A stretch of DNA of 64,000 bases from Alphaproteobacteria bacterium (lineage in GTDB: Bacteria; Pseudomonadota; Alphaproteobacteria; UBA9219). Of the stretch, positions 60,145-64,000 are shown piece by piece. The DNA lies in contig JAQVBU010000011.1 in assembly GCA_028690155.1 (NCBI GenBank), positions 12,370 to 76,369 on the forward strand, read 5' to 3'. Position 1 is the stretch's first letter. Every line of letters starts with the position of its first letter. The notes beneath the pieces were generated by a model. The model saw only the letters and a list, made by a program, of their open reading frames with translations. It was not told where the DNA came from and did no database searches. A program made the position numbers and the translations under genes.

Positions 60145-60220
60145 GCCTAGGTAGCTCAGTTGGTAGAGCAGGGGACTGAAAATCCCCGTGTCGGCGGTTC
60201 AATTCCGTCCCTAGGCACCA
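60145..60220 (+). tRNA. tRNA-Phe (GAA)
   Basis: 76-nt cloverleaf GCCTAGG...CCTAGGCACCA; anticodon loop CTGAAAA. Confidence 0.97.
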
Positions 60221-61136: not shown

Positions 61137-61202
61137 GGCCGACGACACCCGAAATTCTAAAAACGGCGTTTTAAAAGTCAGGATATGATATACAAAGAAG
61201 AA

Positions 61203-61448
61203 TCAGGATTTGTTAATAAAATCGTAGCCACCATCTTCTAAACTTCTTAGCCCATGGTGGGACCCCTGGTGGGGTTGGAACCCGGCCTTTTTTTGAGGAT
61301 CAGAAAATAAGACAGCCAATTTGGCGATGTGCTCGATAGCCCCACGTTGAGAGAAAAGGCCAAAGTGTTGGGATCTTCCATGATGTTGGGGGTGAATGCC
61401 TGTTACTACTTTGGTAACAATAAACCTAAATGGAATATCGCTGGACAT
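61203..61448 (-). CDS. Short hypothetical ORF (may be spurious)
   Basis: 81 aa with no recognisable family, in a low-GC spacer. Confidence 0.3.
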   Translation of the reverse strand: MSSDIPFRFIVTKVVTGIHPQHHGRSQHFGLFSQRGAIEHIAKLAVLFSDPQKKAGFQPHQGSHHGLRSLEDGGYDFINKS

Positions 61449-61509
61449 AGCCTATCAGTGTTAGGAATGTTCTTCATTAATCAGGAATCTCTATTCGGCC
61501 TTATCTGAT

Positions 61510-62418
61510 ATGTCTATGAGAGAGAAGAAATCTATCGATCGTATTGAAGCCTTGATCCAAGAGGATGTCGGAAGAAATGTCATTCCGCTGTTTGAAGCAA
61601 CCAAGGGGAATTTGTATGCGGCGGCACAAGAAATTGCAGAAACAAAGACTCCGAAAATTGGGATTGTGACAGGTTTCTATGTTCCAGCAGGAAACCCTCC
61701 ATCAGCGGAAACCGATGGACCGTTGGGGGCAGTGGTTCTGTCCGCCGGCCTGAAAAAGGCAGCAGTTTCCTGCCGGATTCTGACTGATTCCTATTGTGCC
61801 GGAGCCTGTTTTGCAGCGATAAAAAAGACTGGGCATGATATTCCTTTAGATGTGGCGGATACAGACGATGATTTATCAAACGTCGAACAATTGTGGAAAA
61901 AAGAAGGCATAACTCATATCCTCTCCATTGAGCGTTGCGGGCAAAGTGCTGATGGTAAGCCCAGAAATATGAGGGGGAAGGACATTAGTGAATTTACGCC
62001 TGCGTTTGATAAATTGTTCCACTCAAAAAGTTGGAGAACCCTAGCAATTGGGGATGGTGGAAACGAAATAGGTATGGGAGCCATTGATTCAGCTATCATT
62101 GCTAGCTGTGTAGCACATGGTGATAAAATCGCGTGTAAAACACCTGCGGACTTTTTGATAACAGCAGGTGTTTCCAATTGGGGTGGCTATGCTCTTCTGG
62201 CATCTCTTGGTGTTTTGAGAAAAGAGTGGGGGCAAGGAGCATTGTCCGGGCTGAGTTCGCAGACACATGCTGAAATATTGGAAGCTATGGTTACGCAAGG
62301 ACCGTCAGTCGATGGAGTTACAGGTGAGCAGGTTTTGAGTGTGGACGGATTTGCTCTTGAACGGCACGAGAAGAAACTGGTTGCAGTGAAGAACATCGCA
62401 AGCATCCATCTTAGGTGA
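61510..62418 (+). CDS. DUF4392-domain protein (stand-alone homolog of the D-glutamate cyclase C-terminal domain)
   Basis: VTGF, ETDGPLG, IERCG, NMRGKDIS, IGDGGNEIGMG, GVSNWGGY, VDGV. Confidence 0.85.
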   Translation: MSMREKKSIDRIEALIQEDVGRNVIPLFEATKGNLYAAAQEIAETKTPKIGIVTGFYVPAGNPPSAETDGPLGAVVLSAGLKKAAVSCRILTDSYCAGACFAAIKKTGHDIPLDVADTDDDLSNVEQLWKKEGITHILSIERCGQSADGKPRNMRGKDISEFTPAFDKLFHSKSWRTLAIGDGGNEIGMGAIDSAIIASCVAHGDKIACKTPADFLITAGVSNWGGYALLASLGVLRKEWGQGALSGLSSQTHAEILEAMVTQGPSVDGVTGEQVLSVDGFALERHEKKLVAVKNIASIHLR

Positions 62419-62471
62419 AGATGGATGCTTTTCTCGGAAAGGGGCGACGTTGTTGATGTCGCATAGAAATC

Positions 62472-63794
62472 ATGTGTTATGATGAGTTTCAATTTTTGCG
62501 ATATTCTTTTGACAAAAAAGAGGGCGTTCTTAATATGCACTATGCATATAAGGACGGCCCTTCTTTTGAGGAGAATGTGTCCTTTCCTAGGGCTGCTGTG
62601 GCCTTGGACCCGGGCAAACATGAAGCCTTGGAACAAGCCTTCAAGCTCATTTTCCTGTTGTCCGGGATAAGCTACTATAAACTCTACGTTCCTCGTCGAG
62701 TTGTTTGCCCGGCGTTCCCTCTTGATAAGCAAACAGCAGATTTTCTTAACAAGATTTATTATCATGGTCTTGGCGAATTTGCGTACAGAAATAATGTCTC
62801 TGTTTCCAAAGAGCTGTTTGTTTGCACACAAGATGCCCCCCATCATAAGGCCGTAAAGGTCGCATTGAAAGATAGATCGCTTGTGCCCGTCGGTGGAGGA
62901 AAAGATTCCATTGTTTCTGTGGAGACACTTAAGAGAAATGCAGAAGACCTCCTGCTTTTTGCCGTCGGAAATGTAAAAGGTGTTGCAGAGCCGATCAGGA
63001 AATCAATAGAAACTATGGGGCAACCTTCTGTTATTATCAAAAGGATCCTATCAGGAGAGCTAATCAAGCAGAATGAAAAAGGAGCATTAAACGGACATAT
63101 TCCAATTACGGCGATATTAAGCAGTATTGCCGTAGCCAGTGCGTTGTTGTTTGATTGTAACAAAGTAATCTTTTCCAATGAAAGTTCAGCAAATGAACCG
63201 ACCGTATTTTTAGGTGGGCAAGCCGTAAATCATCAGTATAGCAAGACCTTAGATTTTGAGACGGATTTCGCTGATTTTACTAAATATTATGTATCCCCCA
63301 GTGTGGAATATTTCTCTCTTCTCCGTCCGTTAACGGAGGCTGAGATAGCTCGTCGTTTTTCCGAGATGAAAAAATATCACAATGTGTTTAGGAGTTGTAA
63401 TGCGGCTTTTAAACAAAATAATTTTGAGAGAGGTAAAACATGGTGTTGTGATTGCCCTAAATGCAGGTTTGTTTTCTTGGCGTTGGCCCCGTTTATCAAA
63501 AAAGTGGAGCTAGTGGAAATTTTTGGACAAAATCTTCTCGATGATCCACGACAACTTGATGGTTTTAGGGCGCTTTGTCAGGAAGGTGTGGACAAACCTT
63601 TTGAATGTGTGGGAGAAAAAAAGGAGAGTGCGGTTCTCCTGAAAAGTTTGTCTGCGAATTCGGATTGGAAAGACGATTATATTGTCCGATCCCTTGTTCC
63701 AGATTTTCCTTTAGCGACAGAGAACTTAGCATCTTTTCTGGCACGCAGGGGACCACATCGTATGCCTTCTCGATATAGGAGAGGAGTATGCTAG
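62472..63794 (+). CDS. murL: MurL, UDP-MurNAc-L-Ala-L-Glu epimerase
   Basis: SYYK, YYHGLGEFAYRN, PP-loop-like VGGGKDS, NGHIPITAI, SNESSA, NHQYSK, FRSCN, WCCDCPKCRFVFL, KPFECVG; adjacent to a MurD-like gene. Confidence 0.85.
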   Translation: MCYDEFQFLRYSFDKKEGVLNMHYAYKDGPSFEENVSFPRAAVALDPGKHEALEQAFKLIFLLSGISYYKLYVPRRVVCPAFPLDKQTADFLNKIYYHGLGEFAYRNNVSVSKELFVCTQDAPHHKAVKVALKDRSLVPVGGGKDSIVSVETLKRNAEDLLLFAVGNVKGVAEPIRKSIETMGQPSVIIKRILSGELIKQNEKGALNGHIPITAILSSIAVASALLFDCNKVIFSNESSANEPTVFLGGQAVNHQYSKTLDFETDFADFTKYYVSPSVEYFSLLRPLTEAEIARRFSEMKKYHNVFRSCNAAFKQNNFERGKTWCCDCPKCRFVFLALAPFIKKVELVEIFGQNLLDDPRQLDGFRALCQEGVDKPFECVGEKKESAVLLKSLSANSDWKDDYIVRSLVPDFPLATENLASFLARRGPHRMPSRYRRGVC

Positions 63795-64000
63795 ATGTCT
63801 GCGAAGTTCCTTAGTAAAAAAGAAGTCGTCGTATGGGGAACGGGAAGAGAGGGGCAGTCGGCAGTATTGTTTATGAGAGAGATTGCTCCGGATGTGAGAC
63901 TTTGTTTTGTCGATGAAAAAGAGAATCTTGATCAAGAAATGCTTGAAGGTGTCCAAATAGTTACTGGAGACAGAATTAAAGAAAAAGTTCTAAACGCAGA
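63795..64000 (+). CDS. MurD2-like ligase, N-terminal fragment (runs off the window)
   Basis: Not in the ORF track. GAGGAG RBS, then ATG at 63795 abutting the murL stop; reads MSAKFLSKKEVVVWGTGREGQSAVLFM...FVDE, a Rossmann-like WGxGREG start as in MurD2. Confidence 0.7.
   Translation, partial: MSAKFLSKKEVVVWGTGREGQSAVLFMREIAPDVRLCFVDEKENLDQEMLEGVQIVTGDRIKEKVLNA

What the first reader, a model, noticed from the sequence alone, without database searches (positions are those of the whole stretch)
61510..62418. Stand-alone DUF4392 gene heading the murL-murD2 unit
Seen: DUF4392 is co-oriented 53 nt upstream of murL and shares its low GC. Established: DUF4392 is the C-terminal domain of mammalian D-glutamate cyclase (D-Glu to 5-oxo-D-proline), and the function of the isolated bacterial domain is unknown. 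Inference: a three-gene D-glutamate module in which the cell builds D-Glu only on the UDP-precursor while DUF4392 disposes of or recycles free D-Glu or D-Glu-containing wall fragments, for example from prey or host. I know of no description of this linkage.
Basis: partly seen in the sequence, partly recalled or inferred. Interest (0 to 1): 0.78.

Follow-up and report, generated by a model that had tools for sequence, protein, structure and literature searches.

The report
DUF4392 gene heading a murL-murD2 cassette
A gene of the D-glutamate-cyclase family sits directly in front of the two genes of the racemase-free D-glutamate route of cell-wall synthesis; the same arrangement recurs in at least 42 other loci, is not described in the papers I could search, and here it lies on a foreign DNA island in a cell that also keeps the ordinary route.

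Summary
ORF 61510-62418 is a full-length, stand-alone DUF4392/GLUCM-like_C protein. It keeps the six metal-binding acids of the solved homologue TON_0340. It lies 53 nt upstream of a MurL homologue and a MurD2 that carries the L-Glu signature residues.

The linkage is not unique. DUF4392 lies co-oriented and abutting murL in 42 other loci. Most of these also carry DUF1445, giving the four-gene cluster DUF1445-DUF4392-murL-murD2. The DUF4392 and MurL trees agree.

The linkage is specific to one MurL lineage. Xanthomonad-type MurL genomes lack DUF4392.

It is the only one of 38 MurL genomes examined that has both routes. The cassette looks foreign: GC3 is 0.36-0.40 against 0.62 for the genome, an IS3 fragment lies downstream, and both proteins sit on long tree branches.

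DUF4392 is also fused to MurI-like racemase domains in at least 43 protein clusters. That is a third tie to glutamate stereochemistry.

My best reading is a Mn/Mg enzyme that acts on free D-glutamate and travels with murL-murD2. The biochemistry is inferred, not shown.

The parts
61149..61509 (.). AT-rich spacer between rlmJ (minus strand) and the DUF4392 gene; upstream edge of the low-GC island
   Evidence: GC falls from about 0.54 to 0.44-0.47 here. No sigma-70-like site was found on the + strand. No credible DUF1445 remnant was found (best tblastn E 0.05 against this short stretch).
61510..62418 (+). Stand-alone DUF4392 / GLUCM-like_C gene (302 aa), predicted di-metal (Mn/Mg) small-molecule enzyme
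   Evidence: PF14336 E 3.4e-69. Profile match to PDB TON_0340 at E 5e-33. AlphaFold2 model pLDDT 89.8, and the Foldseek top hit is TON_0340 with TM 0.77/0.86. E67, D69, E141, D182, E186 and D268 align with the six metal ligands of TON_0340 and are invariant. The protein keeps 75 of the 79 columns that are invariant in 25 relatives.
62400..62430 (+). 13-bp hairpin spanning the DUF4392 stop codon, followed by a weak U-tract; possible attenuator or mRNA-stabilising element between DUF4392 and murL
   Evidence: MFE -20.7 kcal/mol, z -4.6, and 0 of 200 shuffles fold as well. The terminator scan did not flag it. In the other loci the two genes abut or overlap.
62472..63794 (+). [quoted passage not shown]
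   Evidence: NF041275 E 8e-132, 440 bits, covering the profile nearly end to end. PP-loop-like GGGKDS motif. It keeps 72 of the 72 columns that are invariant in 20 MurL relatives, including xanthomonad and Micromonospora types.
63795..64000 (+). 5' part of MurD2 (L-Glu-adding MurD paralogue); the gene runs to 65105 beyond the window and is followed by a truncated IS3-type transposase ORF (65663-66181, minus) and the contig end
   Evidence: TIGR01087 302 bits. Pfam MurD-like_N, Mur_ligase_M and Mur_ligase_C. Specificity residues Glu (FPEH), Arg (GGYDRGL) and Pro (PAAPS) are as in xanthomonad MurD2. The genome's own dcw MurD has Asp, Lys and Ala, as in E. coli. The IS ORF matches HTH_21 and rve.

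Best explanation
Shown: ORF 61510-62418 encodes an intact stand-alone member of the DUF4392 family. This family has a small cavity with a di-Mn/Mg site built from six invariant acidic residues. The gene is the first gene of a cassette, DUF4392-murL-murD2. In one lineage of MurL operons it has travelled and diverged together with murL, usually as the four-gene cluster DUF1445-DUF4392-murL-murD2. In this genome the cassette is a foreign, IS-flanked, low-GC island. [quoted passage not shown]

Inferred: DUF4392 acts on free D-glutamate or its lactam, most likely the metal-dependent cyclisation D-Glu <-> 5-oxo-D-proline known from the animal DUF1445-DUF4392 fusion. In racemase-free MurL/MurD2 cells D-Glu is made only on the nucleotide precursor. 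Free D-Glu from wall turnover or uptake can then be neither racemised nor used well by MurD2. In that setting DUF4392 would serve as the sink or salvage step. In this genome the gene came along as part of the transferred unit and is still under purifying selection.
For: Family and active site.

Conserved operon:
- 16 genome loci plus G222 carry DUF1445-DUF4392-murL-murD2.
- G307 has InsA and Transposase_31 genes followed by DUF4392-murL, without DUF1445.
- All 24 metagenome MurL loci at 44-51% identity that have enough upstream sequence carry DUF4392 just upstream.
- In total 42 loci show it, with an approximate median gap of -8 nt.
- In the unbiased phylum sample of 401 genomes, MurL and DUF4392 co-occur in 3, and they are always under 3 kb apart.

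Congruent trees: the window groups with G307 in both the MurL tree (95) and the DUF4392 tree (94). In both trees that group is sister to the four-gene clade.

Racemase-free background: 0 of 37 other MurL genomes have MurI. In Acetobacteraceae, 0 of 17 DUF4392 genomes have MurI against 46 of 184 genomes without DUF4392 (one-sided Fisher p 0.0097, not corrected for phylogeny).

Ties to glutamate stereochemistry:
- The animal DUF1445-DUF4392 fusion is a D-Glu cyclase (PMC5339696).
- Bacterial DUF1445 lies next to DUF4392 in both gene orders.
- At least 43 protein clusters fuse DUF4392 to a racemase domain whose best match is glutamate racemase.

Foreign island: the long branches, and the absence of synteny with genus-mates.

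Purifying selection.
Against: - No activity has been measured for any bacterial DUF4392. The only assay of a stand-alone member (archaeal TON_0340) found weak phosphatase activity, best on AMP, and did not test D-Glu (PMC5132392).
- It is not known which domain of the animal enzyme is catalytic. Pfam names DUF1445, not DUF4392, 'D-Glu_cyclase', and this genome has no DUF1445.
- 16 of 18 other MurL genomes in the phylum sample, and 42 of 43 metagenome MurL loci of the 38-43% identity type, have no DUF4392. A D-Glu sink is therefore not a general need of the pathway.
- Twelve relatives in the same order that have MurL (nine of them genus-mates) also lack it.
- This genome has MurI, which could itself handle free D-Glu.
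- The closest DUF4392 homologues (54-56% identity) are not next to murL.
- No 5-oxoprolinase (pxpABC) is present to take the product further.
- Tight translational coupling to essential wall genes is unusual for a salvage enzyme.
Confidence: 0.45

Rival explanations
1. DUF4392 takes part in the MurD2/MurL reaction sequence itself. As a di-metal hydrolase it could clear or resolve an activated species or by-product of the ATP-to-AMP epimerisation, such as an acyl-adenylate, an anhydride or oxazolone side product, AMP or PPi.
For: The genes abut or overlap murL in 42 loci, which suggests matched expression. TON_0340 has a DHH/RecJ-like metal site and weak phosphoesterase activity that is best on AMP, and AMP is the MurL by-product. 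DUF4392 occurs with murL but without DUF1445 in the window, G307, L130, L146, G390 and Micromonospora.
Against: Recombinant xanthomonad, Micromonospora and Salinispora MurD2 and MurL work in vitro without any third protein (PMC8788868). Most MurL genomes lack DUF4392. The AMP activity is very low (kcat/KM 190 M-1 s-1) and the cavity is small. This reading does not explain the DUF1445 and racemase fusions.
Confidence: 0.15
2. The linkage is historical rather than functional in this genome. DUF4392 acts on some other small molecule and rode along when a block derived from the ancestral four-gene cluster was transferred.
For: The cassette is IS-flanked both here and in G307. The window alone has a 53-nt gap with a strong hairpin between DUF4392 and murL, which suggests looser coupling. 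The closest homologues stand among unrelated genes. Other DUF4392 clades sit next to aminotransferases, TauD-like dioxygenases or acyl-CoA dehydrogenases. The host already has MurI.
Against: The gene keeps 75 of 79 family-invariant columns and all metal ligands despite strong compositional drift. The pairing has survived across a clade with 45-53% MurL identity and congruent trees. An independent arrangement, murL-murD2-X-DUF4392, exists in G390, and a looser neighbourhood exists in Micromonospora.
Confidence: 0.2
3. DUF4392, with DUF1445 where present, runs in the other direction and supplies D-Glu by opening 5-oxo-D-proline. It would then be a further D-Glu source rather than a sink.
For: The cyclase reaction is chemically reversible. 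Thirteen genomes with DUF1445-DUF4392 (Asaia, Rhodopila and other Acetobacteraceae) have neither a MurI above the cut-off nor MurL.
Against: 138 of 155 MurI-less Acetobacteraceae lack DUF4392 too, so another D-Glu source must exist in that family. No source of 5-oxo-D-proline is known. Knockout mice accumulate D-Glu, which shows the degradative direction in vivo (PMC5339696). MurD2 uses D-Glu very poorly.
Confidence: 0.08
4. The adjacency is a chance neighbour or an assembly artefact.
For: The genome is a 43-contig assembly, and the island lies in the last 5 kb of a contig next to an IS.
Against: The same order and orientation occur in 42 other loci from independent assemblies. No repeat lies at the junction between rlmJ and the island.
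Confidence: 0.02

Closest known systems
TON_0340 of Thermococcus onnurineus (PDB 4FC5, 4DWZ, 5GKX, 5GL2-4), the structurally characterised stand-alone DUF4392
   Same: It has the same family and fold (profile E 5e-33; model TM 0.77/0.86, about 30% identity). All six metal-binding acids are conserved. It is a stand-alone protein of about 270-300 aa.
   Different: It is archaeal, with no peptidoglycan context. The bacterial protein has a longer, more divergent N-terminal third. Its only reported activity is a weak Mn-dependent phosphatase, and D-Glu was not tested.
Mammalian D-glutamate cyclase (DGLUCY / C14orf159 / 9030617O03Rik, EC 4.2.1.48)
   Same: Its C-terminal domain belongs to the same Pfam family, and its shown substrate is free D-Glu (PMC5339696).
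   Different: The animal enzyme is a DUF1445-DUF4392 fusion in mitochondria. The window protein has no DUF1445 partner anywhere in the genome. Which domain carries catalysis is not established.
MurL-MurD2 alternative D-Glu pathway of Xanthomonas, Stenotrophomonas and Micromonospora (Feng et al. 2017; review PMC8788868)
   Same: The gene order is murL-murD2. MurD2 has the Glu and Arg specificity residues. MurL keeps all family-invariant columns.
   Different: The described systems have two genes and occur in genomes without MurI. Here a DUF4392 gene leads the unit, the host keeps MurI and MurD, and the unit is on a foreign island.
DUF1445-DUF4392-murL-murD2 four-gene cluster of soil Alphaproteobacteria (Stellaceae, Acetobacteraceae and unclassified MAGs), found here
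   Same: DUF4392 directly precedes murL-murD2. This is the sister clade in both trees, at 45-52% identity.
   Different: Those clusters start with DUF1445, lie in 3.4-7.8 Mb genomes without MurI, and their genes abut or overlap. The window lacks DUF1445 and has a 53-nt gap with a hairpin.
DUF4392 fused to a MurI-like racemase domain (Duganella, Herbaspirillum, Paraburkholderia, Trinickia, Collimonas, Xylophilus and others)
   Same: The DUF4392 domain is intact with its metal ligands, and it is physically coupled to an enzyme of glutamate stereochemistry.
   Different: The coupling is by fusion to a cofactor-independent racemase domain (57-87 bits to TIGR00067, below the cut-off), not by an operon with MurL. 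These proteins are 590-950 aa long.

Membership tests
Pfam PF14336 GLUCM-like_C (DUF4392) | Match to the family HMM above the gathering score over its full length | tested here: met
   233.9 bits against a cut-off of 27.9, profile positions 1-287 of 291.
Pfam PF14336 GLUCM-like_C (DUF4392) | Six invariant acidic metal ligands (TON_0340 E59, D61, E115, D157, E161, D246) | tested here: met
   E67, D69, E141, D182, E186 and D268 are present and invariant in alignment A1. Across 82 relatives five are universal and D268 is nearly so.
Pfam PF14336 GLUCM-like_C (DUF4392) | TON_0340 fold (single alpha/beta domain with a parallel sheet) | tested here: met
   AlphaFold2 pLDDT 89.8 and pTM 0.92. The 15 best Foldseek hits are all TON_0340 chains, with TM 0.68-0.78 on the query length and 0.79-0.87 on the target length.
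D-glutamate cyclase (EC 4.2.1.48, DGLUCY type) | Two-domain architecture of DUF1445 plus DUF4392, fused or as adjacent genes | tested here: not met
   No DUF1445 was found upstream, in the contig tail or anywhere in the genome (tblastn with seven DUF1445 queries; whole-genome search).
D-glutamate cyclase (EC 4.2.1.48, DGLUCY type) | Conversion of D-Glu to 5-oxo-D-proline | not testable with these tools
   This needs an enzyme assay. It has been shown only for the mouse fusion protein (PMC5339696).
MurL-MurD2 pathway unit | MurL orthologue | tested here: inconclusive
   NF041275 gives E 8e-132 and 440 bits over the profile nearly end to end (positions 9-439 of 447), but that is below the Xanthomonadales equivalog cut-off of 700. 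The protein keeps 72 of the 72 columns invariant across xanthomonad, Micromonospora and alphaproteobacterial MurL. Activity was not assayed.
MurL-MurD2 pathway unit | MurD2 with the residues that switch specificity from D-Glu to L-Glu (Glu197 and Arg358 of X. oryzae MurD2) | tested here: met
   The window MurD2 has Glu (FP-E-H) and Arg (GGYD-R-GL). The genome's dcw MurD has Asp and Lys, as in E. coli.
MurL-MurD2 pathway unit | Host genome lacks glutamate racemase, as reported for all described hosts | tested here: not met
   An intact MurI lies at C27:75546-76286 (209.9 bits against a cut-off of 146.65; DSGVGG, ACNTAS and GCTHFP motifs present). All 37 other MurL genomes checked lack it.
Horizontally acquired genomic island | Deviant composition, a mobile-element gene at the border, and phylogeny at odds with the host | tested here: met
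   GC3 is 0.36-0.40, in the lowest 0.1-1.4% of long ORFs. An IS3-type OrfB fragment lies downstream. MurL is only 48-53% identical to genus-mates' MurL, while MurI is 52-71% identical (64-71% in eight of nine). The MurL end branch is 0.91 against a median of 0.17, and there is no synteny.

The most novel reading that the evidence does not exclude
DUF4392 is the metal-dependent catalytic unit for D-glutamate that is conserved from archaea to humans. In one MurL lineage it is a standing operon partner that keeps free D-Glu in check in racemase-free cells. The compact DUF4392-murL-murD2 cassette is mobile and drives the repeated switching between MurI-type and MurL-type wall synthesis seen within this single genus. 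This genome would then be caught in the intermediate state, with both routes present.
Probability: 0.27. Interest if true: 0.8.

Novelty: new variant of a known kind. Interest (0 to 1): 0.6.

Why it matters
DUF4392 is conserved from archaea to humans and has no settled function. MurL/MurD2 is a recently found alternative route of wall synthesis that has been proposed as a narrow-spectrum drug target.

A conserved operon joins the two. Fusions of DUF4392 to DUF1445 and to MurI-like racemases point the same way. Together they give a concrete, testable substrate hypothesis for the whole family: free D-Glu or 5-oxo-D-proline.

The finding also raises the question of how racemase-free bacteria handle free D-Glu. 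Separately, the genus shows a mix of MurI-type and MurL-type species, and this genome carries both routes on different backgrounds. That offers a natural system for studying how an essential pathway is replaced by gene transfer.

Tried and rejected
- Two-cysteine racemase idea. C143 and C209 are invariant among close relatives but are replaced by V, A, P or S across the family and in TON_0340, so they are not a family-wide catalytic pair.
- Remnant of DUF1445 upstream of the gene or in the contig tail: nothing credible.
- pxpABC 5-oxoprolinase in the genome: no tblastn hit with the E. coli proteins at E <= 0.01.
- Synteny of the island site with the murL loci of genus-mates: none.
- The 414-aa gene upstream of DUF4392 in metagenome locus L115 is unrelated to the 415-aa gene between murD2 and DUF4392 in G390, and unrelated to MurL.
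- The metagenome scan with the single MurL sequence found nothing. The scan with an alignment worked.
- My first simple ORF caller failed on high-GC loci. I replaced it with tblastn mapping of the four proteins.
- The promoter scan gave no convincing site upstream of the gene.
- The Foldseek search beyond TON_0340 gave only weak Rossmann-like or HAD-like matches and no mechanistic lead.
Full report
**1. The observation.**
ORF 61510-62418 (+) encodes 302 aa and matches Pfam PF14336 (GLUCM-like_C, formerly DUF4392) over the whole profile (E 3.4e-69). Its TGA stop is at 62416-62418. The next ORF, 62472-63794, starts 53 nt later on the same strand. That ORF matches NCBIfam NF041275 (MurL) at E 8e-132 and 440 bits, which is below the Xanthomonadales equivalog cut-off of 700. 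An ORF starting at 63795, directly after the MurL stop, runs past the window. In the contig it is 436 aa and matches TIGR01087 murD at 302 bits. It is followed by a truncated IS3-type transposase ORF (HTH_21 and rve) and the contig end.

The three genes have GC of 0.47, 0.42 and 0.42 and GC3 of 0.40, 0.38 and 0.36. The genome is 0.543 GC, and 867 long ORFs have GC3 of 0.62 +/- 0.07.

**2. What the protein is.**
[quoted passage not shown] The AlphaFold2 model (pLDDT 89.8, pTM 0.92) superposes on TON_0340 with TM 0.77/0.86, and no other fold comes close.

The TON_0340 paper (PMC5132392) describes a small solvent-exposed cavity with a di-Mn/Mg site formed by six invariant acids. It also reports a RecJ/DHH-like arrangement of the site and a very weak Mn-dependent phosphatase activity, best on AMP (kcat/KM 190 M-1 s-1). 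The authors conclude that all family members probably act on the same small molecule.

The window protein has all six ligands (E67, D69, E141, D182, E186, D268). Five are universal and D268 nearly so in 82 relatives. The protein keeps 75 of the 79 columns that are invariant in its 25 closest relatives, and the four changes are conservative. It is an intact enzyme gene, not a relic.

The animal D-glutamate cyclase is a fusion of DUF1445 and DUF4392 (PMC5339696). Which domain does the chemistry has not been reported in the papers I could search.

**3. The partners.**
The window MurD2 carries the residues that were shown by mutagenesis to switch MurD2 from L-Glu to D-Glu use (Glu197 and Arg358 of the X. 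oryzae enzyme; PMC8788868). It has Glu in FP-E-H, Arg in GGYD-R-GL and Pro in PAA-P-S, exactly as a xanthomonad MurD2. The genome's second MurD, in the dcw cluster on contig C32, has Asp, Lys and Ala like E. coli MurD. MurL keeps all 72 columns that are invariant across xanthomonad, Micromonospora and alphaproteobacterial MurL.

**4. The premise 'D-Glu only on the UDP precursor' fails for this genome.**
The genome has a glutamate racemase at C27:75546-76286. It scores 209.9 bits against a cut-off of 146.65 and has the DSGVGG, ACNTAS and GCTHFP motifs. The genome also has the canonical MurD just described, so both routes are complete.

This is exceptional. None of the 37 other MurL-bearing genomes I checked has MurI:
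- the 16 genomes with the four-gene cluster and 3 Micromonospora;
- G222;
- G307, G390, G481, G594 and G283, plus 12 relatives of the window's own genus, family and order.

Within the window's own genus, nine species have MurI (52-71% identical to the window's, 64-71% in eight of them) and no MurL. Nine have murL-murD2 and no MurI. Only the window's genome has both.

**5. The linkage is conserved, but only in one MurL lineage.**
I fetched 80 loci around DUF4392 homologues from one genome per species and mapped the four proteins by tblastn.
- Sixteen loci (Stellaceae, Acetobacteraceae and unclassified Alphaproteobacteria) have the co-oriented cluster X-DUF4392-murL-murD2. X is PF07286, the DUF1445 'D-Glu_cyclase' domain.
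- About fourteen further close loci have DUF1445-DUF4392 without murL.
- Planctomycetes have the reverse order, DUF4392-DUF1445.
- Two Micromonospora loci have DUF4392 3-6 kb from a divergent murD2/murL pair, with unrelated genes in between.

In an evenly drawn sample of 401 genomes of the phylum, MurL occurs in 19 and DUF4392 in 12. Both occur in three: the window's genome, G307 and G390. In all three they lie within 3 kb of each other.
- G307 has InsA and Transposase_31 genes, then DUF4392 (49% identical to the window's), then murL (53%). No DUF1445 or MurI occurs anywhere in that genome.
- G390 has murL-murD2, an unknown 415-aa gene, DUF4392 and a methyltransferase on one strand.
- In a sample of 201 Acetobacteraceae the single MurL genome (G222) has the four-gene cluster.

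Eighty MurL loci from metagenomes split cleanly. All 24 loci with 44-51% identity to the window's MurL and enough upstream sequence carry DUF4392 directly upstream, mostly preceded by DUF1445. Of the loci at 38-43% identity (xanthomonad-like and others), 42 lack it and one has it.

Altogether 42 loci outside the window have DUF4392 co-oriented directly before murL, and the genes abut or overlap (approximate median gap -8 nt). True three-gene forms without DUF1445 are the window, G307, L130 and L146.

Conversely, 16 of 18 other MurL genomes in the phylum sample have no DUF4392, and 12 MurL-type relatives of the window's order (nine of them genus-mates) have none either. DUF4392 is therefore an accessory of one operon lineage, not a component of the pathway in general.

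**6. Trees.**
In the MurL tree the window's protein lies in a 95%-supported group with G307 and three genus-mates. It sits on a long branch (0.91 against a median of 0.17). That wider clade is sister to the four-gene-cluster clade.

In the DUF4392 tree the window groups (94%) with G307 and with the genus-mate G644. G644 has MurI, no MurL, and unrelated neighbours. That group is again sister to the DUF1445-linked alphaproteobacterial clade. The two genes have therefore diverged together.

The cassette looks acquired rather than inherited in place, for four reasons:
- deviant composition;
- the IS border;
- no synteny with the murL loci of genus-mates;
- a native MurI at the identity to genus-mates expected for a vertically inherited gene.

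The donor may be a distant member of the same order.

**7. Further ties of DUF4392 to glutamate.**
One genome of the phylum sample (G516) has two DUF4392 matches in a single open frame. The frame encodes three parts in order: an intact DUF4392, a racemase domain with the MurI motifs (DSxxGG, ACNTAC, CCTHYP), and a degenerate second DUF4392.

A database search with the first two domains found 43 protein clusters of 587-952 aa that carry PF14336 plus PF01177. They come from Duganella, Herbaspirillum, Paraburkholderia, Trinickia, Collimonas, Xylophilus, a Cytophagales MAG and others. Their racemase part matches glutamate racemase best among NCBIfam models, at 57-87 bits, below the equivalog cut-off.

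Three independent associations now point to glutamate stereochemistry:
- fusion or adjacency with DUF1445, which in animals is a proven D-Glu cyclase;
- fusion with MurI-like racemases;
- the operon with murL-murD2.

In Acetobacteraceae, none of 17 DUF4392 genomes has MurI, against 46 of 184 genomes without DUF4392 (Fisher p 0.0097, not corrected for phylogeny).

**8. Mechanism.**
My best reading, with confidence of about 0.45, is as follows. DUF4392 is a Mn/Mg-dependent enzyme acting on free D-Glu or its lactam. In racemase-free MurL/MurD2 cells it removes or salvages D-Glu, which those cells can neither racemise nor feed efficiently to MurD2 (X. oryzae MurD2 has very low activity with D-Glu). 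In this genome it arrived as part of a mobile cassette.

- Shown: family, fold, metal site, conserved operon, co-divergence, racemase-free background of the other hosts, foreign origin here.
- Inferred: the substrate and the direction of the reaction.

Against this reading:
- No assay exists for any bacterial member.
- DUF1445 is absent here, and Pfam places the cyclase name on DUF1445.
- Most MurL genomes manage without DUF4392.
- This host has MurI.
- No 5-oxoprolinase is present.

The rivals are a helper role inside MurL chemistry, a hitch-hiker with another substrate, the reverse (supply) direction, and chance. They are weighed in their own sections of this report.

**9. Transcription.**
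The window's 53-nt gap holds a 13-bp hairpin over the stop codon (-20.7 kcal/mol, z -4.6) followed by a weak U-tract. Elsewhere the genes abut.

**10. Novelty.**
Full-text searches for DUF4392, DUF1445, D-glutamate cyclase, DGLUCY, MurL and MurD2 found no paper that links these families. Subscription journals are largely outside that library.

The parts belong to known families. The new points are:
- the conserved DUF(1445-)4392-murL-murD2 operon;
- the DUF4392-racemase fusions read as evidence for a substrate;
- a genome that holds both D-Glu routes.

I rate it a new variant of a known kind, with interest of about 0.6.

Noticed in passing
whole genomes of the window's genus (handles G634-G653): Within one genus, nine species have MurI and no MurL and nine have murL-murD2 and no MurI. 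Only the window's genome has both. An essential step of wall synthesis has apparently been swapped repeatedly among close relatives.
   Followed up: partly
201 Acetobacteraceae genomes: About 155 of 201 genomes have no glutamate racemase near the TIGR00067 cut-off, and only one has MurL. Most carry only a weak 27-43 bit Asp/Glu-racemase-like hit covering profile positions 55-190. Their source of D-Glu is not obvious from these searches.
   Followed up: no
L196:3761-11569 (G516) and proteins P0121-P0164: DUF4392 is fused to a MurI-like racemase domain, sometimes followed by a degenerate second DUF4392. There are 43 protein clusters, mostly from Burkholderiales.
   Followed up: partly
L093:4835-10711 (G390): An operon-like row on one strand: murL, murD2, a 415-aa protein with no Pfam match, DUF4392, and a class I methyltransferase. 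This is an independent arrangement of the linkage.
   Followed up: partly
L092:4806-8944 (G307): InsA-like and Transposase_31 (YhgA-like) genes lie directly upstream of DUF4392-murL, in a genome of another class that has neither MurI nor DUF1445. This is a second IS-flanked three-gene form.
   Followed up: partly
window 62400-62430: A strong hairpin spans the DUF4392 stop codon. It is absent from the other loci, where the genes abut.
   Followed up: partly
window 60145-60220: tRNA-Phe (GAA) lies 1.3 kb upstream of the island, separated from it by rlmJ on the minus strand. No att-like repeat was looked for.
   Followed up: no
L044, L048-L050, L055, L074 (cyanobacteria and one gammaproteobacterial MAG): In this DUF4392 clade the gene follows a class III aminotransferase and a TauD-like dioxygenase, which suggests a different pathway context, perhaps a natural product.
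   Followed up: no
L060-L062, L072, L076, L077, L079, L081 (Planctomycetota): The gene order is DUF4392-DUF1445, the reverse of the alphaproteobacterial order and of the animal fusion.
   Followed up: no
I did not check it.
   Followed up: no
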